A stretch of 64,000 nt of DNA from Vulcanimicrobiota bacterium (GTDB taxonomy: Bacteria; Vulcanimicrobiota; CADAWZ01; Ess09-12). Of the stretch, positions 25,074 to 34,169 are shown in pieces. The notes under the pieces were generated by a model. It was not told the DNA's origin and ran no database searches. It worked only from the letters and a program-made list of their open reading frames with translations. How positions within the stretch are numbered: the first letter of the stretch is position 1; each line of letters begins with the position of its first letter. Made by a program: the position numbers and the translations under genes. The stretch spans positions 102,669 to 166,668 of the forward strand of contig JAVHLM010000007.1 of assembly GCA_031082125.1 (NCBI GenBank). The letters run 5' to 3'.

Positions 25074-27428
25074 TTAAGTGATGGAATCGCCGGAGCCCGC
25101 CAGGACTCCCTTTTGATAGACCAGGAAGGGAGTGCCTTCCGAGAGGGAGCCGAAGGTGAAGGTAAGATCATAGGGCGCCCTGCCCTTCACGGTGAGGGTC
25201 CGCAGGCCATGGAGGAGGTGGAGGTGGCAGGCCTCGCAGAGCACGATGAGGTTCCAGGGGTCATCGGTGCCGCCCTGGGAGCGCCTGATGATGTGATGCA
25301 CGTGCAAATTCCGACGGCACCGGCAGCCGGGGGTCTGGCAGCGAAACCGGTCGCGCTTCAGGATTTTGTGATGATGGGCCGCTTTTTTCAAGGTTCCCTC
25401 AGTGACAATGTAGTCTGCCAGGAGGGCTGCAAGGAATTTCTCTTCCGGTTGGCCCAGGTTGTCGGCTGCTTCCGCGAGGGCAAGGCGGCCGAGAAAGGCA
25501 TGGACCGCCAGGTTCCAGATTTCAAGGAGCTCCCGGGGGAGAAAGAATTTTATCATCATGGAGCTTCCTGCCGCCGGCGAGGGATCTCCCGCCGTGAGGA
25601 TGTCCACCAGGAAGGTCTCCTCGGGATTCTCGCCCCGGGGGATGGTACAGATCTGCCGGGCTTTTTGCCCCGCACACAGCCTCGAATTTCTTTCAATTTC
25701 AAGGGAAGCCTCGGAGGCCATCATCTCATCGACATCGCTGAAGTACCTCCAGGGCGCATCAAAGCGCCTGTCGCGGCCTGCAATGAGCTTCTCGTCGTCT
25801 GACGCGAGAGGCCACGAAGAGCAAAGAGAGGGGCCCTTATACCACGAGCCATCACGTATGCAGTCCTGCACCTCCGGAGAAAGGCCCCGGAACCTCTCGT
25901 CGGTGAGATAGCGGAGGCCGGGAAGCAAAGTATAATTGTGGGAGACCAGGCAGTCATATTCAAGGATCCTGGCAACTCGCCCCGCCTCTTCCCTGAGGTC
26001 CGCCGTGGGCACGCTCGCGGCATAGGCAATCCACTGCGATTCATTCCTGGAGTCCACCAGGGGGAGAATGAGGCGCGCCTGCTCCCTGGTGATGACGCCC
26101 TTCCTGAAGGCGTCTTCGGTGAGGGAGTGGCGGCGGAATCCCTCGGCGAGCCTGATGAGCTGGCGGGTCTGCGCCATCGAGAAGCCGCAGCGCTCCCCTG
26201 CATAGTCCTCGATGAACTCATAGCCGAGAAGGCGGTGGAGCTGCCGATCATCCATCGCCCGAAGGAGCATTCCCGCGGCCACGTCAAGCCTCTGGCGGAT
26301 GGAGGCGGCCCTCCGGAGGCGGCCCGCAAACGCCCTGGCGGAGACCCCGGCGTATTCTCCGCCGGACCGGGCCTCTTCCAGCCACGACGGAAAATGGATG
26401 CTCCAGGGCAGCTCCCAGGGAGCGCCGCAGGAAGGGCTTCCGAAGGCCTTCCCGACACCCTCATCGGGATCGCTCACACGCCGGTTTCCCATCCTTCTCT
26501 TCATGAGGGGCACCCGTGAGAAGAGGGGGCGATTTCCCTTGGCATCAAGGGCCGGAAGCTCCGGGGCGGCTTCCCCTGAGGCAAGGAAATTCGCAAGGAG
26601 AGCCTCGACAAATCCTGAGACAGGCCCGTCATAGTGCTCTTTGTCCCGGAAGAGGGAGAGGGCGAAGTCCCAGGTGAGGGCAAGGGAGGGCGGCACGCTG
26701 AAATACATCATCGTGCCCTCAGCCTCGTCACCGTGCGCATCATCGCACGCCCCGCCCGCTGCGCGCAGACTTCCTTCAGAACCGGGAGCCCCATCGGCCT
26801 TCCCTTCAGCGAGGGCCCTTTTCACTTCCTGCTCGAGGCCGCACAGCGAGCGCCCACTGGCAATGGCGAGCCACTCACCCTCGTTCTCGGGCATGATGAC
26901 CCTCGAAAGATGCCTGAGAGCGCTCTTCGCGATCCTGCCCTCAAGATAGGCCTCCCGGGTGAGGGGGAGCGCCTTGAGGAGATCGAAGTTGTGCATCAGC
27001 TCCGATGCGGTGCGCCCGGAGAACGAGAGATGCTCCGTGGCGAAGGTGCCCATGGAGCGGTATCCTAACTGATCAACCCCTTTCGTTTTAAGAGTGACGA
27101 GAAGGCCGCCGAGTGCAAGATCAAGTGCCAGGCGGCCGCGGACTGCCTCGCAGAGCAGAAAATCAATGCGCTTTGCCCGCTCATCCCTGTCGATTGAGCC
27201 GAAGGAGATATCCTCGGTGAGCTTTTCCGCTTCGGGGATGAGGCCCTCCCTGGTGAGCTTGACGAGGTGCTCCGGCCTGCAGGGCCCTCCCGCGGAAAGC
27301 TCATAAGGCTCCGGCAGGAGCAGCATGTCCTCGTAATCCTGAGAAGACAATGGATTACCGAGGTGAAGAAGCTCTTCTTCATCTGGAAGGAACAGGGCAG
27401 TAACGGAACGAGTCTCATGTGTATCCAT
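25074..27428 (-). CDS. Large HNH endonuclease-domain protein with DUF222-like N-terminal region
   Basis: C-terminal RDRFRCQTPGC...HVHHIIRRSQGGTDDPWNLIVLCEACH. Start at ATG 27428; the ORF track start is 27491. Confidence 0.85.
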   Translation of the reverse strand: MDTHETRSVTALFLPDEEELLHLGNPLSSQDYEDMLLLPEPYELSAGGPCRPEHLVKLTREGLIPEAEKLTEDISFGSIDRDERAKRIDFLLCEAVRGRLALDLALGGLLVTLKTKGVDQLGYRSMGTFATEHLSFSGRTASELMHNFDLLKALPLTREAYLEGRIAKSALRHLSRVIMPENEGEWLAIASGRSLCGLEQEVKRALAEGKADGAPGSEGSLRAAGGACDDAHGDEAEGTMMYFSVPPSLALTWDFALSLFRDKEHYDGPVSGFVEALLANFLASGEAAPELPALDAKGNRPLFSRVPLMKRRMGNRRVSDPDEGVGKAFGSPSCGAPWELPWSIHFPSWLEEARSGGEYAGVSARAFAGRLRRAASIRQRLDVAAGMLLRAMDDRQLHRLLGYEFIEDYAGERCGFSMAQTRQLIRLAEGFRRHSLTEDAFRKGVITREQARLILPLVDSRNESQWIAYAASVPTADLREEAGRVARILEYDCLVSHNYTLLPGLRYLTDERFRGLSPEVQDCIRDGSWYKGPSLCSSWPLASDDEKLIAGRDRRFDAPWRYFSDVDEMMASEASLEIERNSRLCAGQKARQICTIPRGENPEETFLVDILTAGDPSPAAGSSMMIKFFLPRELLEIWNLAVHAFLGRLALAEAADNLGQPEEKFLAALLADYIVTEGTLKKAAHHHKILKRDRFRCQTPGCRCRRNLHVHHIIRRSQGGTDDPWNLIVLCEACHLHLLHGLRTLTVKGRAPYDLTFTFGSLSEGTPFLVYQKGVLAGSGDSIT

Positions 27429-27463
27429 GATTGTATCATAGCATATCAGCCAAAAAACATCAA
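27426..27463 (-). promoter_or_regulatory. Sigma70 promoter, leaderless configuration, for the HNH gene
   Basis: Minus strand reads TTGATG-N17-TATGAT (with extended TG), 6 nt, then ATG; no RBS. Confidence 0.65.
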
Positions 27464-27705
27464 ACAGGCTGCCCCTCTCAAACCTTATCACAGAGAGGAT
27501 AAAATGCCGTCACAGGATGCCCTCCAGAGGGCCCGGAAGAGGTTGAAAGGCCAAAAATGACTCTGAATGCCATGAAGCGAGAGTCAGTGAAGGACCAGGC
27601 CGGTTTCCCCGCGTTTCAGATCCAGTCTGTCGCCGGGCATAAGGTTTTTTTGCGCGGGAAAGATTTTATAAGACAGCGGAAACCATGATCCCATGTTCCT
27701 GAACC

Positions 27706-27874: not shown

Positions 27875-28210
27875 CTATCCGACTATATCCATCAGGCCTT
27901 CAATAATGCTTTCCAACTCTTCGTAGCCTGCAGTGCCGATTTTTTTGCCCAGCCGGTCGGTGGACAAAGTTCTTATCTGGCCGATCTTCACCCAGGAAGG
28001 CCTCGTAAGACCATGGGAGCTCAGTCTGTATGACAAAGGGAAGCCGGCGGCGGGCTCCCTGCTTGTGACCGCCAATGCTATGACCGTACCGCTTCTCTCG
28101 TTGAAGATATCCTGGCTTATCACGAGGACGGGCCTTTTGCCCGCCTGTTCTCTTCCCCTGACGGGATCAAGATCTGCCCAGAATATATCACCTCTCAGTA
28201 TTTTTCCCAT
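27875..28210 (-). CDS. mazF: PemK/MazF-family mRNA interferase toxin
   Basis: RGDIFWADLDPVRGREQAGKRPVLVIS, VKIGQIRTLSTDRL. Confidence 0.92.
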   Translation of the reverse strand: MGKILRGDIFWADLDPVRGREQAGKRPVLVISQDIFNERSGTVIALAVTSREPAAGFPLSYRLSSHGLTRPSWVKIGQIRTLSTDRLGKKIGTAGYEELESIIEGLMDIVG

Positions 28211-28437
28211 GCCTTATTCACCGCGTCAAATCCTTCTTCTGAGAGCTTTCTCTCTTCCTCGGGCACAACCTGTGATAGGGCGCTCTGCAATCGGTTCTTC
28301 CGCCACCGTGCAATTCTTTCTTTCAGAACTTCCTGGATTGCTTTGCTTCTGTTGGGATATAGGCCCTCCGATACCCATAAATCTATTTCTTTAAGGCATT
28401 CATGCTCTAATGTGATAGCAATTTTAGCACTGGCCAC
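28195..28437 (-). CDS. Ribbon-helix-helix (CopG-type) antitoxin
   Basis: KIAITLE...YPNRSKAIQEVL; GTG 28437 after GAGGTG; overlaps the toxin start. Confidence 0.85.
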   Translation of the reverse strand: MASAKIAITLEHECLKEIDLWVSEGLYPNRSKAIQEVLKERIARWRKNRLQSALSQVVPEEERKLSEEGFDAVNKAWEKY

Positions 28438-28678
28438 ACAAATCACCTCTGGTAATCTATTTTATCAACCCAATCTTTCTTTGTCAATCATAGAGCCACT
28501 ATGCAATGTCATACGATAGTTACAATGGATGGGCAGGTCAGTGCCTATCCATTGTGTGTAAGAAAGAATATGGAGTGGAAAAATCAAGGGACTGACCCAA
28601 ACTAACGTGGATTACCAGGAAGGCAGAGCCACAAACAACTTGAAATAGTTGTTGAGTAATCTAAAGGAGGTCAGTCCC

Positions 28679-29804
28679 ATGAATAATTATAGCACACTCT
28701 ATGTCGGGTTGGATGTCCATAAGGAAACGATTGTTGCGGCATGCATATCTGGAGCAACTGGTGAAATTGTTGGCGGGGAAAAGTTTTCGAATGACTTGAA
28801 AAAACTCAAGAACTATCTTAAGCAACTGGAAAGAAAATTGAATGGAAAAGTCTTGGCGTGTTATGAAGCTGGTTGCATGGGGTATGCTCTCCAGAGAGAA
28901 ATTGAGCGTTGGGGTCACACCTGTAAGATTTTAGCACCTGCAATGATTCCTCAACGACCAGGAGATCGCTGTAAAACCGACAGGCGCGATGCTGAAAAGC
29001 TGGCAAATCTCTGCTTCTCTGATCAGCTTACGTTCATCGCGATTCCTGATGAAAAAGATGAGCCTGTGAGGGATCTGCTCAGATACAGAGATGTGTTGCG
29101 AAAAGAAATATTGCAATCAAAGCATTATGTATTGAAATTTCTCCTGCGAAAAGGTTTCGGTATACATCAGGTAAAGCCCATCGGACAAGATGTCACTGGG
29201 AGTGGCTCCGCTCCATTCGTTTTGATTACTCTCTCGATCGTGAGCTCTTCCAGGAATACCTCGTGCTTTTGGAGTTCAAACTCCAGCGTCAGAATGAAAT
29301 TGACCGGCGGATTGAAGAAGTATCAAGAACACCCAGGTACTCAGAAAAAGTGAGGTATCTATCTGCCTATCGAGGCATTGATATCTATTCTGCCATGGTT
29401 TTGCTTCTGGAAACAGGTGACTTTAATAGATTTCCAAAAGCAATGAACTACATGAGTTTTCTTGGTCTGGTGCCTTCTGAGTATTCATCGGGTGGTATTG
29501 AAAAACGCGGTCATATTACAAAAACAGGGAATTCTCACTGTCGTCATGTATTAGTCCAGGCAGCCTGGCATTATTCGAGACCTGTTAGGATTGAGAATAT
29601 TGTGAGTAAGCTCTCTGGGATGCCGCCCTGGTTAGTTCTCAAGTAATCCAGGCACAGGAAAGACTTTGCCGAAAATACTGGAAATTGGCGCGACAAAAAA
29701 GTCCTCGAATTGCTGTGATAGCAGTGGCTCGCGAACTGGCCGGTTTTATCTGGGCAATGATGAAGAAACTTCAAGAGGAAAAGGCTCACAAGTTAGCAGC
29801 ATAA
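28679..29804 (+). pseudogene. IS110 transposase/recombinase with two single-base frameshifts
   Basis: GLDVHK, YEAG, KTDRRD (DEDD) and LGLVPSEYSSGG. Reading continues after shifts near 29159 and 29642 to ...IAVIAVARELAGFIWAM...LAA* at 29804. Confidence 0.88.
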
Positions 29805-29825
29805 GTCATAATCCTAAATTATATG

Positions 29826-30002
29826 TTTGGGGGATGGCACGGTACGAAAGCAGGAACCTCGAGAACGTTATGTGACAGTCATTGAACTGATTCACGCGGA
29901 TAGTTTCAAGGTTCCTCGACGAACGTGGTAAAATGCGGCAACATCGTTGACCCGCGCATATCAGAGTGATTCATCGTCGAAGCATCCGTGCCGTCTCCCA
30001 AA
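29826..30002 (+). ncRNA. Bridge/seek RNA of the IS1111-type element
   Basis: 17-bp closing stem (29826-29842/29986-30002) encloses two hairpins with internal loops. The loop sequences match the target flanks (GAACG, GATAG) and the element ends (GTAA, CATATCAG). Confidence 0.8.
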
Positions 30003-30037
30003 TAAAAAACAAGAGGTGTTATCTATGTAGAAAAAGA

Positions 30038-30139
30038 TTGTGGATACTGCCGTTCTGTGCATAACTTATGGACAGCAAGCTGCCCACAAGTTATACTCAT
30101 CACTTGACCAAGTCTTCGACCTGCTCACAGTATCCACAA
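30038..30139. repeat. Palindromic module with DnaA-box-like 9-mers inside the IS right end
   Basis: Perfect 12-bp inverted repeat TTGTGGATACTG / CAGTATCCACAA; TGTGCATAA at 30056-30064. Confidence 0.6.
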
Positions 30140-30711
30140 CGTGAGTGCAAATATTTATAAAATGAGAGAAAAAGCGAAGAGTTCCTGGGACGCTTTTTGT
30201 GCCTCTTGACAAGGCCCATCCATATCAGCGTTCGCCTTTCACATGCAGACCCACCCCTCCTGCTCGGATTTTTCTTTATGCACCAATAATTTTGCTGCGT
30301 TCCCCTTCTCTTTTATGAATTCACAGGAAAGACAGCAGGAGGACAGGGGACATTCTCCTCTTCAGCAAACGTTTGATTCTGTCCCTATGGGTGCACAGGA
30401 ACACAGACAGAATCTGTTTGCCCGGGAGAATTCCCCTGGCCTCTCTCTACAGCGCCTGCCTGGTGTGATGCAAGTGGCAACAAGATAACCAGGTAGTATC
30501 AATGAGGAAAATATTCTTCGATTGCAGCGGACTTGGTGACTGCCTGCAAATTCCGAACGCTGTCAGTGAAATATGACAAGAAAGTGTATCTCGGGATTAA
30601 CGATCTATTTACCTTTTGTTCACATATCGGAAATATAATTCTGGTAAAATATGATCAGTGACTGATGATAACAATAAATAGTAGAGAAAAATCTCGAAGG
30701 AGGTAAAGGAT

Positions 30712-31419
30712 ATGATAGGCGGAGTAGGCGGCGGTGGCTCATCAAGCGTTATGACAATGGCCCAGATGCAGCAGGCTGATATGCAGCTGATGGAGCAGAG
30801 GGCACTCGAGCTGCAGGGAAAGAAGCCCAAGGAGACGGGATATCCTGATCCTTATGCTCCTCTCAAGAATGACCTTGCGGAGGGCGCCGATGAAATTGCG
30901 GGCCGGCACCGGAGCATTGAGGGGGACCGGCAGCAGTCGCGCTATGAATATGCAGTGGGCGAGCATGGGCTCGGCAGTGAAGTGGTGAACCAGAGCTGGA
31001 ACAATTTCAGGGAGAATGTGGGTAATACCGCGACAGTGCTATCGACTGGCGCAAAAGCAGCTTTCGATGTAGGAGTTGCAGCCCCGGCAATAGGCCTTGT
31101 CAACGCAGGACACGCGACAGTGGACGGTGCGGCAGATACTGTCAACCATTCGGTGGGGCATGTGAAAGAAGGCGGCCAGGAAATAGCCCAGCGCCATAGA
31201 AACGCCGACATGGATCGTACTGAATCACGGCAGGAATATGCAAAGGGAGAACACGGCCTGGCATCGGAGCTTATCGGGCAGGGATGGATCAACTTCAAGG
31301 AAAATGTGGGGAACACAGGGACGGCCCTCAAGACAGGCGCCCACCTGGGGATTGATGCGGCCACGGCTCCCGCGAGATTTCTCTGGAATACGGCGACACA
31401 TTTAGTCAACGGGAGATAA
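30712..31419 (+). CDS. Hypothetical protein with two tandem ~96-aa-offset repeats
   Basis: RBS AAGGAGG; EG..EIA.RHR...DR..SR.EYA.GEHGL.SE...Q.W.NF.ENVGNT occurs twice. Confidence 0.8.
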   Translation: MIGGVGGGGSSSVMTMAQMQQADMQLMEQRALELQGKKPKETGYPDPYAPLKNDLAEGADEIAGRHRSIEGDRQQSRYEYAVGEHGLGSEVVNQSWNNFRENVGNTATVLSTGAKAAFDVGVAAPAIGLVNAGHATVDGAADTVNHSVGHVKEGGQEIAQRHRNADMDRTESRQEYAKGEHGLASELIGQGWINFKENVGNTGTALKTGAHLGIDAATAPARFLWNTATHLVNGR

Positions 31420-32165: not shown

Positions 32166-34169
32166 ATGAGCCAGCCAGAATCTCAGACAGGGACTCCCTT
32201 AATAGCAAATGATTCCGCTCGCCTCTTTCTGATTAGCTTCCTTGTGCTCTTCTTCGAGCTTGTCTGCATCAGATGGATCCCCGCTTATATAAGATACCTG
32301 AGTTATTTTTCCAACTTTGTGCTGCTCTCATGTTTCCTGGGAATGGGAGTCGGCCTTCTTGCGGCGAAAAAAAAATGGCAGCTTTTCTCTCTTTTCCCGC
32401 ACACGCTCCTCAGCTTCATTATACTTGTCTCCTTCATGAAATATGATTTCATGCTTACTTCGAACGATGCCCTTTATTTTCAGCACCATGCAAAGGAATA
32501 TAAGCAGGTTGAAAGTTATTACCTGCTGCCTTTCGTATTCGTATCTGTCACCTTTATGATGGCAATGCTCAGCCAGGAAATGGGACAGCTCTTCGGCCGG
32601 TTCAGGCCTCTTAAGGCATACGCTCTGAATATCGGCGCAAGCCTGGCCGGAATAGCCATTTTTTCAATCTTAAGTTACTTTCTCGCTTCGCCGCTCTTAT
32701 GGTTCCTTATTATCTCTGTTATCGTGCTGCTGCTTGAACGGGGAAAGCCCTTGAAAATCCTCTTTACTTTATCTGCTCTCAGCCTGATCTGCATCAGCGT
32801 CTTCTGCCTCCAGAAAGAAAGCATCTGGAGCCCTTATTACAAGATTACCATGCGTGAACTTGCCGACGGGGGAAAAGAATTGAATGTAAATAACATCGGG
32901 CACCAGACAATGCAGAGGATAGAAAGCAAGGAGGCCTTTTACCACATTCCTTATACCTCATACAATAATAACCATTTCAAGAGGGCCCTGATCATCGGGG
33001 CAGGCAGCGGAACGGACACCTCCTTTGCGCTGAAGTATGGAGTCGAGCAGGTCACCGCTGTCGAGATTGATCCGGTCATTTACATGCTGGGATATCATTT
33101 TCATCCCCTGCAGCCGTATTCTGATTCAAGAACTGAGGTCAGAATATGTGATGCGCGGACATTCCTCAAAAATGATAAGTCCCTGTATGATCTGATAATC
33201 TTTGCCCTCCCCGATTCGCTGACGCTCACCTCATCATTCGCGAATCTGAGGCTTGAGAGCTATCTCTTCACTGTCGAGTCCCTGGCGAGCGCGAAGGAGC
33301 GCCTGGCACCCGGAGGGCTTATGGTGTTATACAATTATTACAGAGAAGACTGGCTTATCGACAAGCTGGCGGGCATGCTCAGGGAAGTCTTCGGGTATGC
33401 GCCCAAGGTCCAGGTCTTTGAAAGCAAGGAAGCCGTTTTCATGGCAGGCGATAAGATCAAGGATCTGAAATCGCCGATACCTGATAAAAAGATGGATTCA
33501 TCCTTGAAGCTTGCCACCGACGACTGGCCCTTCATCTATATGAAGAGGGCAGCCATTCCCCCGATATTCATCTTCTCTCTGTTGATGATTGCAGCATTCG
33601 GTGTCGGTATGGTGCTGCTGGCCTCTCCACCGGGGACCCTGCGGGGCTTCAGCGGCCATTTCTTCTTTCTGGGCGCGGCCTTCATGCTTCTGGAGACTAT
33701 GAACGTGGTGCGGTTCTCTCTCATCTTCGGAAGCACCTGGATGGTGAATTCCCTCGTGTTCTTCGCCGTTCTCGCGATGGTACTGCTGGCCATCTGGGTA
33801 TCGGAAAGATTCAGGATCGAGAGAATGTGGCTGCTCTATGCCGTCCTCTTCGGAATTCTGCTGCTCAATTATCTTCTGCCCCTCGAGAGCCTCCTCAGCG
33901 GAAACCCTGTGCTTCGCTATATTCTCTCGAGCCTGATGCTTTTCTCTCCTATTTTCTTTGCGAATCTCATCTTCACTTCCACCTTCAGGGAAGAGACGGG
34001 GACCGCTGTGGTAGCCCTTGCCTCCAACATCCTGGGCTCTTTCTTCGGCGGAATGTTTGAATACACATCCCTGGTGCTCGGGTACAGGAACCTGGTAATC
34101 TTCGTGGCAGTGTTTTACGCGGCAAGCTTCCTTTTCCTGCACCTGGCGGCGAAGAGCAAAAGCCATTGA
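32166..34169 (+). CDS. Membrane-bound spermidine-synthase-like SAM-dependent transferase
   Basis: TM clusters flank a core with LIIGAGSGTD, AVEIDP, DARTFL, YDLIIF and TDDWPF. Confidence 0.85.
   Translation: MSQPESQTGTPLIANDSARLFLISFLVLFFELVCIRWIPAYIRYLSYFSNFVLLSCFLGMGVGLLAAKKKWQLFSLFPHTLLSFIILVSFMKYDFMLTSNDALYFQHHAKEYKQVESYYLLPFVFVSVTFMMAMLSQEMGQLFGRFRPLKAYALNIGASLAGIAIFSILSYFLASPLLWFLIISVIVLLLERGKPLKILFTLSALSLICISVFCLQKESIWSPYYKITMRELADGGKELNVNNIGHQTMQRIESKEAFYHIPYTSYNNNHFKRALIIGAGSGTDTSFALKYGVEQVTAVEIDPVIYMLGYHFHPLQPYSDSRTEVRICDARTFLKNDKSLYDLIIFALPDSLTLTSSFANLRLESYLFTVESLASAKERLAPGGLMVLYNYYREDWLIDKLAGMLREVFGYAPKVQVFESKEAVFMAGDKIKDLKSPIPDKKMDSSLKLATDDWPFIYMKRAAIPPIFIFSLLMIAAFGVGMVLLASPPGTLRGFSGHFFFLGAAFMLLETMNVVRFSLIFGSTWMVNSLVFFAVLAMVLLAIWVSERFRIERMWLLYAVLFGILLLNYLLPLESLLSGNPVLRYILSSLMLFSPIFFANLIFTSTFREETGTAVVALASNILGSFFGGMFEYTSLVLGYRNLVIFVAVFYAASFLFLHLAAKSKSH

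What the first reader, a model, noticed from the sequence alone, without database searches (positions are those of the whole stretch)
29826..30002. Readable bridge RNA whose four guide segments match this insertion's own target and donor
Seen: outer stem 29826-29842/29986-30002. Hairpin 1 (AGGAACCT 29852-59 / AGGTTCCT 29909-16) has loop segments GAACG (29863-67, reverse complement of right flank CGTTC 30229-33) and GATAG (29899-903, identical to left flank plus core 28515-19). Hairpin 2 (CGACGA 29917-22 / TCGTCG 29974-79) has GTAA (29928-31, reverse complement of left end TTAC 28520-23) and CATATCAG (29957-64, identical to right end plus core 30221-28). Known: IS110/IS1111 recombinases use bispecific bridge/seek RNAs, located downstream of the transposase in IS1111-type elements. 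Inference: a complete, potentially reprogrammable target/donor pair with an AG core.
Basis: partly seen in the sequence, partly recalled or inferred. Interest (0 to 1): 0.8.

Follow-up and report, generated by a model that had tools for sequence, protein, structure and literature searches.

The report
Bridge RNA of a decayed IS1111-type element

Summary
Window 28520-30228 is a 1,709-bp IS110-family element with IS1111-type architecture. It has a short left end, 10-bp subterminal inverted repeats, a DEDD transposase and a long right end carrying a 177-nt structured RNA (29826-30002).

A covariance model built from 42 relatives, excluding this window and its closest relative L001, finds the RNA at 120.8 bits (E = 4.6e-30). 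25 of the 33 base pairs show compensatory changes.

Across about 45 distant relatives and about 85 soil-metagenome relatives, all four loop segments covary with the DNA they should read:
- the 3' target segment equals left flank (3 nt) + AG core + the first 2 nt of the left end;
- the 5' target segment is the complement of AG core + 5 nt of right flank;
- the 3' donor segment equals the right end (5 nt) + AG;
- the 5' donor segment is the complement of the first 3-4 nt of the left end.

The window's GAUAG, GAACG, AUAUCAG and GUAA sit exactly in these registers. Two near-identical copies in other metagenomes have unrelated left flanks that both end in GATAG.

Caveats: the transposase carries two frameshifts, no empty allele or RNA data could be found, and one core position pairs only as U·G.

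Verdict: a real but ordinary new member of a known kind.

The parts
28515..28519 (+). Left half of the target: GAT plus the AG core copy (28518-19)
   Evidence: Identical to RNA 29899-903. Near-identical copies of the element in runs X7 and X10 have unrelated DNA up to exactly this pentamer. Family flank positions -5 to -1 match the RNA in 64-95% of loci, against 26-49% at the variable positions in cross-pairings.
28520..30228 (+). Whole insertion sequence, 1,709 bp, IS110 family with IS1111-type architecture. GC is 45% in a 54-60% GC host region.
   Evidence: Ends are defined by the subterminal inverted repeats and by homology to the ends of L001 and about 45 relatives. GC profile.
28525..28534 (+). 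Left subterminal inverted repeat ATGGATGGGC, 5 nt in from the end
   Evidence: Perfect 10-bp inverted repeat with 30214-30223, and the only two copies in the window. It is also part of a local 14-bp hairpin, 28522-35 with 28542-55 (I2).
28584..28682 (+). 5'-UTR stem (28584-97 with 28669-82) that sequesters the Shine-Dalgarno GGAGG and the ATG of the transposase
   Evidence: I3. Fold z = -4.89. The same stem occurs in L001 with compensatory changes, ACUGACC/GGUCAGU versus ACCGACC/GGUCGGU.
28679..29803 (+). Transposase (DEDD/RuvC-like domain plus Transposase_20 domain), a pseudogene with two -1 frameshifts. One is in the T-run 29155-57, the other is near 29630-29640. The catalytic motifs GLDVHK, CYEAG, DRRDA and PSEYSSG are still readable.
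   Evidence: Three-frame translation. Pfam. NCBIfam NF033542 at 229 bits. Copies in X7 and X9 carry an extra T after 29154, which restores the frame at that site. Other genes in the window are long and intact, so rampant assembly error is unlikely.
29826..30002 (+). Bridge RNA / long seekRNA gene: an outer stem enclosing two stem - internal loop - stem-loop modules
   Evidence: Fold z = -5.46. Model R2, built without this window or L001, gives 120.8 bits and E = 4.6e-30 at 29827-30000. 92% of cells are paired and 25 of 33 pairs have compensatory changes.
29863..29869 (+). Target loop, 5' strand: GAACGUU, pairing with the top strand of core + right flank (AG|CGTTC). It has one U·G wobble at core G.
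   Evidence: Family: the reverse complement of this segment matches right-flank positions +1 to +5 in 57-81% of loci, against about 25% in cross-pairings. Self 4.76 vs cross 0.75, 0 of 5,000 permutations. Soil clade 4.65 vs 2.25.
29871..29896 (+). Distal stem-loop of the target module (UGUGACAG...CUGAUUCACG)
   Evidence: Consensus structure. Helices 4 and 5 are 98% and 89% paired, with compensatory changes.
29899..29905 (+). Target loop, 3' strand: GAU (left flank) + AG (core) + UU. The UU equals the first 2 nt of the left end and is in the position of a handshake guide.
   Evidence: Identical to 28515-28521. Family per-position matches. The 2-nt extension covaries with the left end (AC/AC 20, AT/AT 4, TT/TT 3, TC/TC 1, AA/AA 1; self 1.69 vs cross 1.19 of 2).
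29928..29931 (+). Donor loop, 5' strand: GUAA, complementary to the first 4 nt of the left end (TTAC)
   Evidence: It is in the same register as the 3-5 nt left-end complement of relatives. Self 2.76 vs cross 2.04, 0 of 5,000 permutations. This is the weakest of the four guides.
29934..29956 (+). Distal stem-loop of the donor module (UGCGG CAAC AUC GUUG AC CCGCG)
   Evidence: CAAC/GUUG in the window versus GGC/GCC in L001. Helices 7 and 8.
29958..29964 (+). Donor loop, 3' strand: AUAUC + AG, identical to the last 7 nt of the right end including the core
   Evidence: Equals 30222-30228. In the family, variants covary with the right end: L040 ATATGAG, L042 ATCCTAG, L031 ATAGCAG, L027/L003/L004 ATACGAG, L057 ATATTAG, L030 ACATCAG, L055 ATGAGAG, L046 ATACCAG.
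30206..30211 (+). TTGACA, a -35-like hexamer 17 nt from the right end. After circularisation it would face TTACAA/TACAAT of the left end, giving a candidate junction promoter.
   Evidence: Read from the sequence. GTCAA lies at a similar distance from the end in most relatives. Junction promoters are documented for this family (PMC11187229). For this element it is an inference.
30214..30223 (-). Right subterminal inverted repeat (GCCCATCCAT on the + strand)
30227..30233 (+). Right junction: the AG core copy at the element's end (30227-28) and the right half of the target, CGTTC (30229-33)

Best explanation
Window 29826-30002 encodes the bispecific guide RNA (bridge RNA, or long seekRNA) of an IS1111-type member of the IS110 family that occupies 28520-30228.

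The RNA has an outer stem and two modules. Each module is a basal stem, an internal loop and a distal hairpin.

In the target module:
[quoted passage not shown] - the UU can pair with the first two bases of the incoming left end after strand exchange, which is the handshake position.

In the donor module:
[quoted passage not shown] A DEDD/serine recombinase tetramer bound to this RNA would bring together the circularised element (junction ...CATATC-AG-TTACAATGG...) and a target reading GAT-AG-CGTTC, and exchange strands at the AG (CT on the other strand) core. That gives exactly the two junctions seen here.

Shown: the RNA family, its structure, the four guide registers, their covariation with flanks and ends, and the conserved AG core.

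Inferred from published IS621, ISEc11 and ISPa11 work: RNA-protein complex formation, the circular intermediate, and the strand-exchange chemistry.

This copy cannot move on its own. Its transposase has two frameshifts, while the RNA and both ends are intact.
For: 1. Anatomy. The transposase has DEDD_Tnp_IS110 and Transposase_20 domains and passes NF033542, 'IS110 family RNA-guided transposase', at 229 bits. There are 10-bp subterminal inverted repeats. The left end is short (159 bp) and the right end long (425 bp) with the RNA in it, which is the published IS1111 layout (PMC11208160, PMC11187229).

2. RNA family. Model R1, built from the window and L001 only, hit 76 of 82 homologous loci, always on the transposase strand and just downstream of the gene. 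Model R2, built from 42 relatives without the window or L001, hits 29827-30000 at 120.8 bits, E = 4.6e-30. 92.2% of cells are paired against about 40% for slid controls, and 25 of 33 pairs have compensatory changes.

3. Guides covary with DNA (self mean vs cross mean, 0 of 5,000 permutations each):
- left flank: 4.27 vs 1.89;
- right flank: 4.76 vs 0.75;
- left end: 2.76 vs 2.04.
Per-position registers coincide with the window's segments. Right-end variants are mirrored in the donor loop. The closest relative, L001, changes 3 + 3 target-guide bases, and its flanks change with them.

4. Soil clade. It has a nearly invariant scaffold but 46 different 5' guides and 26 different 3' guides, and these track the flanks.

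5. Same element elsewhere. Copies of the left end in X7 and X10, 95-99% identical to the window's, have unrelated left flanks that both end in GGATAG, matching RNA GGAUAG.

6. Guide order. The top-strand match is 5' of the bottom-strand match, as reported for IS1111 seekRNAs (PMC11187229).
Against: - No empty allele of this site was found, so the exact junction at AG is inferred from family conservation and from the core duplication, not from a before/after pair.
- There is no transcript evidence; no RNA run holds the stretch.
- Rfam 15 has no matching family.
- The transposase is frameshifted twice, so the RNA may no longer be used in this genome.
- In the window, the core-pairing bases are imperfect: U·G in the right-target guide and A/A opposite the core in the left-end guide.
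- The left-end guide is only 4 nt, and its family covariation is the weakest of the four.
- The donor-loop handshake position shows no covariation with right flanks (0.50 vs 0.46).
- One X1 contig ends at 30228 and continues TCTGTCCC, which does not fit CGTTC. X1 also carries a related element with a different target loop, so that contig probably belongs to that relative.
Confidence: 0.9

Rival explanations
1. The RNA gene and the ends are a fossil. The element is dead in this genome, and the matches between guides and junctions merely record the last insertion. Nothing here functions today.
For: There are two frameshifts in the transposase. Other genes in the window are long and intact, so the frameshifts are probably real rather than assembly noise. 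There is no second copy of the RNA or transposase in the 64-kb window. No RNA data exist. The X7 copy also carries a 5-nt deletion near 29164.
Against: The RNA scores 120.8 bits against a family model, with all helices intact and all four guides still matching, so decay is recent or limited to the gene. The first frameshift is a single-base change in a T-run, and X9 has the in-frame version. An intact copy elsewhere in the genome could act in trans, since seekRNA and transposase work in trans (PMC11187229). This reading is about present activity; it does not contradict what the feature is.
Confidence: 0.55
2. Only the first hairpin is a guide, that is, a target-seeking seekRNA. The second hairpin is a protein-binding scaffold, and its resemblance to the ends reflects independent conservation of both rather than base-pairing to donor DNA.
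For: AUAUCAG and the right end CATATCAG are both highly conserved, so most of their agreement carries no covariation information. In one search the right end was located by using the RNA 7-mer, which is circular. The left-end guide is short, with modest signal (2.76 vs 2.04). The seekRNA paper defined only target matches.
Against: Where the right end deviates, the donor loop deviates identically, in at least 10 loci and 8 different variants. In most of those loci the end was independently confirmed by its inverted repeat with a left end that follows an NAG flank. The left-end guide changes with the left end: GGU/ACC, UGU/ACA, AUC/GAT-type ends, GUAA/TTAC, GAUAA/TTATC. The donor loop is established for IS621 and was predicted for IS1111 elements (PMC11208160).
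Confidence: 0.06
3. The structure is a generic 3'-UTR or terminator element of the transposase mRNA, and the short matches to the flanks are coincidence.
For: In the window alone, the 5-mers and the 4-mer are individually expected by chance in 9-42% of shuffles. Rfam gives no hit.
Against: All four words occur together in 1 of 20,000 shuffles. Family-wide covariation sits at exactly these registers. No terminator-like T-run follows the stem.
Confidence: 0.02

Closest known systems
IS1111-group elements with a downstream seekRNA / bridge RNA (ISEc11, ISPa11, ISKpn4, ISPst6; Siddiquee et al. 2024, PMC11187229; IS1111 predictions in Durrant et al. 2024, PMC11208160)
   Same: - A DEDD + PF02371 transposase with the GL-P----SG motif (FLGLVPSEYSSG).
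- Subterminal inverted repeats (10 bp, within the published 7-17 bp range).
- A short left end and a long right end.
- The guide RNA lies downstream of the transposase.
- The segment complementary to the top strand lies 5' of the segment complementary to the bottom strand.
- The two target matches overlap at a central dinucleotide.
- A possible junction promoter (-35 in the right end, -10 in the left end).
   Different: - The transposase is about 375 aa, against 330-350 aa reported for IS1111-family enzymes.
- It is only about 23% identical, over 69% of its length, to IS4321/IS5075.
- The nearest intact relative is 58% identical.
- Placement inside the IS1111 clade was not tested by phylogeny.
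- No experimental data exist for this lineage.
- This copy's transposase is frameshifted.
IS621 bridge RNA (IS110 group; Durrant et al. 2024, PMC11208160; Hiraizumi et al. 2024, PMC11208158)
   Same: - Two internal loops, one for the target and one for the donor.
- Each loop reads one strand on each side of a 2-nt core, and the core is included in the pairings.
- Read on the opposite strand, the core here is CT, as in IS621. In that frame the layout is the same: the sense guide on the 5' side, the antisense guide + core + 2-nt handshake position on the 3' side (my inference and the definitions).
   Different: - The RNA lies in the right end, downstream of the gene, instead of in the left end upstream of it.
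- Relative to the direction of the RNA and the gene, the polarity of the recombination site is inverted.
- Guide lengths differ. Here they are 5 + core and 3 + core for the target, and 3-4 and 5 + core for the donor. IS621 has a 7-bp left-donor arm and a natural right-target pairing of 4 bp.
- The subterminal repeats are long.
- No covariation was detected for a donor-loop handshake guide.
ISPpu9 / Ssr9 small RNA of Pseudomonas putida (PMC12288879)
   Same: An IS110-family element with a small RNA gene downstream of the transposase and insertion into specific short sequences. This is taken from the abstract only.
   Different: Not compared at sequence level here. ISPpu9 targets REP sequences, and extra orphan copies of its RNA gene exist.

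Membership tests
IS110 family (RNA-guided DEDD transposases) | N-terminal DEDD/RuvC-like domain (PF01548) plus C-terminal Transposase_20 domain (PF02371), scoring above the NCBIfam NF033542 cut-off | tested here: met
   PF01548 E = 1.5e-15 and PF02371 E = 8.1e-19 on the two frames. The read-through protein scores 229 bits against a cut-off of 140.
IS110 family (RNA-guided DEDD transposases) | Intact catalytic residues (D, E, D, D and the serine of the SG motif) | tested here: met
   GLDVHK, CYEAG, DRRDA and PSEYSSG are present in the read-through translation and align with invariant columns of 25 homologues. The open reading frame itself is broken by two frameshifts.
IS1111 group | Subterminal inverted repeats of 7-17 bp | tested here: met
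   ATGGATGGGC at 28525-34 and its complement at 30214-23, each 5 nt in from the end. Relatives have equivalent repeats.
IS1111 group | Short left end, long right end, and the long non-coding region / guide RNA downstream of the transposase | tested here: met
   The left end is 159 bp and the right end 425 bp. The RNA lies 23 nt after the stop codon. The same holds in 76 of 82 relatives.
IS1111 group | In the RNA, the top-strand target match lies 5' of the bottom-strand match (reversed relative to the IS110 group) | tested here: met
   GAACG (complement of the top-strand right flank) is 5' of GAUAG (equal to the top-strand left flank). The same order holds family-wide. The rule is from PMC11187229.
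IS1111 group | The transposase clusters phylogenetically with IS1111-family enzymes (330-350 aa) | tested here: inconclusive
   No tree was built. There is about 23% identity to IS4321/IS5075 and a similar level to IS110-group enzymes on plasmids. The length, about 375 aa, is outside the reported range.
IS1111 group | Insertion without target duplication beyond the shared core, and a circular intermediate with abutted ends | not testable with these tools
   No empty site and no circle-junction reads were found. AG is present at both junctions.
Bridge RNA / long seekRNA | A conserved secondary structure with two internal loops, supported by covariation | tested here: met
Bridge RNA / long seekRNA | Target-loop strands covary with the left and right flanks of the insertion | tested here: met
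   Independent insertions in X7 and X10 share GATAG.
Bridge RNA / long seekRNA | Donor-loop strands covary with the element's own ends | tested here: met
   Right-end variants are mirrored in the donor loop. Left end vs 5' donor strand: 2.76 vs 2.04, 0 of 5,000 permutations. This is weaker than the target signal.
Bridge RNA / long seekRNA | The RNA is expressed, binds the recombinase and is required for recombination | not testable with these tools
   No RNA runs were available. This needs an experiment.

The most novel reading that the evidence does not exclude
The element belongs to a distinct, uncharacterised lineage of IS1111-like bridge recombinases.
- Its transposases are about 375 aa and at most about 25% identical to the studied IS4321/IS5075-type enzymes.
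- The lineage is very abundant in soil, sediment and groundwater metagenomes.
- It has an almost invariant RNA scaffold and dozens of natural guide variants.
- It uses a compact 3 + 2 + 5 bp target code.

Read on the opposite strand, the system is point-for-point the IS621 design: CT core, sense guide on the 5' side, antisense guide plus handshake bases on the 3' side. On that reading, the IS110/IS1111 split would be an inversion of the recombination site relative to the gene/RNA module rather than a different mechanism. The lineage could supply new programmable recombinase orthologues.
Probability: 0.5. Interest if true: 0.45.

Novelty: new member of a known kind. Interest (0 to 1): 0.33.

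Why it matters
The finding shows that a bridge RNA can be read directly from raw sequence and checked against its own insertion junctions. It also gives a clean annotation for an element that Rfam and standard pipelines would label only as a 'transposase pseudogene'.

The family analysis adds three things:
- a calibrated covariance model for this RNA lineage;
- its guide registers: 3 + core + 2 handshake bases on one strand, core + 5 on the other, 5 + core and 3-4 for the donor;
- evidence of extensive natural reprogramming on a fixed scaffold.

These are useful for annotating IS110/IS1111 elements in metagenomes and for picking orthologues for recombinase engineering. The finding does not change the understanding of the mechanism.

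Tried and rejected
- Rfam 15 scan of 28000-31000 at E ≤ 1: no hit.
- Empty-site search: exact-protein look-ups of the neighbouring antitoxin, toxin and the downstream ORF found nothing on record. Contigs of runs X1 and X2, which hold roughly 90%-similar host DNA, do not span the junction and show no joint. No run holds the right end alone. Laying runs on 30020-30330 gave nothing.
- RNA-seq: no run was listed.
- The single metagenome scan, with a donor-loop pattern, was meant to find more copies of this very element. It returned almost only a different, very abundant soil clade. That clade was used as an extra covariation set instead.
- Locating the left end by inverted repeat alone misfired for the window itself and gave no NAG| left junction for L003 and L030. 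The window's left end was set from the reading and from homology to L001, and the other two loci were dropped.
- Donor-loop handshake guide: tested, no covariation with right flanks.
- A junction promoter as a family-wide feature: the -35-like GTCAA is common, but the spacing to the end varies from 16 to 19 nt. It is therefore claimed for the window only, as an inference.
- A second weak model hit at 33394-33529 (13 bits, E = 0.04) lies inside a 667-aa ORF and was judged to be chance.
- Programmed frameshifting as an explanation for the broken gene: rejected. X9 carries the in-frame T4 run, and the family's genes are single ORFs.

Full report
**1. What is in the sequence**

- The outer stem is 29826-42 with 29986-30002, 17 bp including two G·U pairs.
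- Hairpin 1 is AGGAACCT 29852-59 with AGGTTCCT 29909-16. Its loop words are GAACG (29863-67, the reverse complement of right flank 30229-33) and GATAG (29899-903, equal to 28515-19).
- Hairpin 2 is CGACGA 29917-22 with TCGTCG 29974-79. Its loop words are GTAA (29928-31, the reverse complement of TTAC 28520-23) and CATATCAG (29957-64, equal to 30221-28).

The 177-nt stretch folds far better than its shuffles (-71.3 kcal/mol, z = -5.46).

Taken alone, the short words are weak evidence. They occur somewhere in 9%, 36% and 42% of shuffled RNAs. Only the 8-mer (0.17%) and the conjunction of all four (1 in 20,000) are unusual. The case therefore had to be made with relatives.

**2. The surrounding element**

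Positions 28520-30228 form a 1,709-bp insertion with 45% GC in a 54-60% GC region. It has perfect 10-bp subterminal inverted repeats, ATGGATGGGC at 28525-34 and its complement at 30214-23, each 5 nt in from the end.

It encodes a transposase with the DEDD_Tnp_IS110 and Transposase_20 domains. Read through its two frameshifts, the protein scores 229 bits on NCBIfam NF033542, 'IS110 family RNA-guided transposase', against a cut-off of 140.

The gene is broken twice.
- One break is a T3 run at 29155-57. Near-identical copies in other metagenomes have T4, which restores the frame.
- The other break is near 29630-40.
- Other genes in the window are long and intact, so the frameshifts are probably real.

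The left end is 159 bp and the right end 425 bp, and the RNA starts 23 nt after the stop codon. This is the published IS1111-group layout: short left end, long right end, long subterminal repeats, and the RNA in the right end (PMC11208160; PMC11187229).

The insertion lies about 32 bp upstream of the -35 of a strong promoter-like site (28487-28459, minus strand) that faces a PemK/MazF-RHH toxin-antitoxin pair.

**3. The RNA is a conserved family**

The nearest intact transposases are only 58% and 56% identical. The 58% relative, L001, is a complete element on a 2-kb contig.

A covariance model built from just the window and L001 hit 76 of 82 loci that encode 38-58% identical transposases. These come from Gemmatimonadota, Rokubacteria, Acidobacteriota, Elusimicrobia, Firmicutes and others. 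The hit was always on the gene's strand and immediately downstream.

On 42 of these, excluding the window and L001, the structure is 92% paired against about 40% when partners are slid. 25 of the 33 pairs show compensatory changes (the alignment was fitted to the model, which favours it somewhat).

A second model was built from those 42 only. It finds window 29827-30000 at 120.8 bits, E = 4.6e-30, and nothing else credible in the 64 kb. Rfam 15 has no corresponding family.

**4. The four loop segments read DNA**

In the relatives, the right end was located as the copy of the donor-loop 7-mer downstream of the RNA. The left end was then located independently, through its inverted repeat with that right end. 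Almost every left flank then ends in NAG, and almost every right end ends in AG.

Per-position comparison gives the following.
- The 3' target strand equals flank positions -5 to -1. Matches are 0.64, 0.86 and 0.93 at the variable positions, against 0.26-0.49 for mismatched pairings, plus the conserved AG.
- That strand continues into the first two bases of the left end (0.90 and 0.69, against 0.70 and 0.36).
- The reverse complement of the 5' target strand equals the core plus right-flank positions +1 to +5 (0.81-0.57, against about 0.25).

Permutation tests give 0 of 5,000 for left flank, right flank and left end.

Deviant right ends are mirrored base for base in the donor loop: ATATGAG, ATCCTAG, ATAGCAG, ATACGAG, ATATTAG, ACATCAG, ATGAGAG and ATACCAG.

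L001 differs from the window at three bases in each target strand, and its flanks differ in the same way: TCGAG|TTAT... and ...CAA|CGAAT.

An abundant soil clade was retrieved with the donor-loop pattern. It has a nearly invariant scaffold but 46 different 5' guides and 26 different 3' guides, and these track the flanks.

The window's GAUAG(+UU), GAACG(UU), GUAA and AUAUCAG lie precisely in these family-defined registers.

**5. Independent insertions of the same element**

Contigs from two other metagenomes (X7, X10) match the window's left end at 95-99% identity. Upstream of position 28515 their DNA is unrelated:
- ...ATCCGGTG|GATAG|TTAC...
- ...CCCCTTG|GATAG|TTAC....

Both in fact read GGATAG, matching RNA GGAUAG. 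So three independent left junctions share exactly the bases the RNA specifies.

No right junction of another copy and no empty allele could be retrieved.

**6. Mechanism**

Shown:
- the structure;
- the guide registers;
- the covariation;
- the AG core at both junctions.

Inferred from IS621 and ISEc11 work (PMC11208160, PMC11208158, PMC11187229):
- the element excises as a circle joining ...CATATC-AG-TTACAATGG...;
- in the window this juxtaposes TTGACA (30206-11), 17-18 nt, and TACAAT, a candidate junction promoter that would drive the transposase and, by read-through, the RNA;
- the recombinase-RNA complex holds that donor in the second loop and a GAT-AG-CGTTC target in the first;
- strands are exchanged at the core.

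Read on the opposite strand the core is CT, as in IS621. The layout then becomes IS621's: the sense guide on the 5' side, and the antisense guide + core + two handshake bases on the 3' side (definitions; the mapping is my inference). The two bases after the core in the target loop covary with the left end, as a handshake guide should. The equivalent donor-loop bases show no such signal.

In the window, the right-target guide pairs with core G only as U·G, and the left-end guide does not pair with the core.

**7. Comparison and novelty**

This is the IS1111-type bridge RNA / long seekRNA described in 2024. The order of the top-strand and bottom-strand matches is the one reported for IS1111 elements.

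Differences from studied members:
- a longer transposase, about 375 aa against 330-350 aa;
- very low identity to IS4321/IS5075, about 23%;
- no phylogenetic placement attempted.

It is a new member of a known kind. It is correctly read by the first stage, but it is not surprising to a specialist, and it is non-autonomous in this copy.

Noticed in passing
window 28584-28597 / 28669-28682 (and L001 399-410 / 475-486): A 5'-UTR stem pairs the Shine-Dalgarno GGAGG and the ATG of the transposase with an upstream segment. The stem is conserved in L001 with compensatory changes (z = -4.9 and -4.2). It is probably a translational brake on read-through transcripts.
   Followed up: partly
window 27875-28446 (- strand) and 28459-28487: A PemK/MazF toxin (111 aa, E = 1e-29) and an overlapping RHH antitoxin (83 aa) sit next to the element, with a near-consensus promoter (TTGACA-17-TAAAAT, TG-extended). 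The element is inserted about 32 bp upstream of the -35, so the toxin-antitoxin promoter itself is left intact.
   Followed up: partly
window 30206-30228 + 28520-28526: Joining the right and left ends would create TTGACA-N17/18-TTACAA/TACAAT, a candidate circle-junction promoter. Junction promoters are known for ISEc11 and IS492.
   Followed up: partly
window 28522-28555: The left subterminal repeat is part of a local 14-bp hairpin (ACAATGGATGGGCA / TGCCTATCCATTGT, 6-nt loop). The element therefore carries three copies of the repeat motif. L001 lacks an obvious equivalent.
   Followed up: no
window 30038-30049 / 30128-30139 and 30069-30097: A perfect 12-bp inverted repeat, 78 nt apart, lies in the right end between the RNA and the terminal repeat. 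It encloses an outward-facing promoter-like site (TGGACA-17-TATACT, 10 of 12). Its function is unknown.
   Followed up: no
window 29785-29812: A weak promoter-like site (CTCACA-16-CATAAT, 9 of 12) ends 14 nt before the RNA's outer stem. It could give the RNA its own transcription start.
   Followed up: no
window 25074-27491 (- strand): An 805-aa protein whose only recognisable domain is a C-terminal HNH nuclease motif (residues 722-758). The rest has no Pfam match.
   Followed up: no
window 30712-31419: A 235-aa ORF with no Pfam hit contains two copies of a roughly 75-aa internal repeat (…GxHRxxxxDRxxSRxEYAxGEHGLxSExxxQxWxNFxENVGNT…). It lies just downstream of the insertion.
   Followed up: no
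run X1, contigs laid at window 29931-29992 and ending at 30228: X1 (a groundwater metagenome that also holds roughly 90%-similar host DNA) carries a related element. Its target loop differs (…GGAGTTTGAAGGCTCCC…), and a contig ending at the right end continues TCTGTCCC instead of CGTTC. This is probably a sister element with other guides.
   Followed up: partly
L050, L052, L053 (three contigs of one MAG): Three copies of one relative sit in near-identical sites (GAAAGTYAATAG | CCYGGYGCGT). This suggests a repeated target sequence in that genome.
   Followed up: no
L093, L123, L159, L168 (metagenome loci): Several loci keep only the donor-module half of the RNA, joined to unrelated upstream DNA. 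They could be truncated elements or rearrangements within the RNA gene.
   Followed up: no
window 33394-33529: A weak match to the RNA model (13.3 bits, E = 0.04) inside a 667-aa ORF. Judged to be chance.
   Followed up: partly
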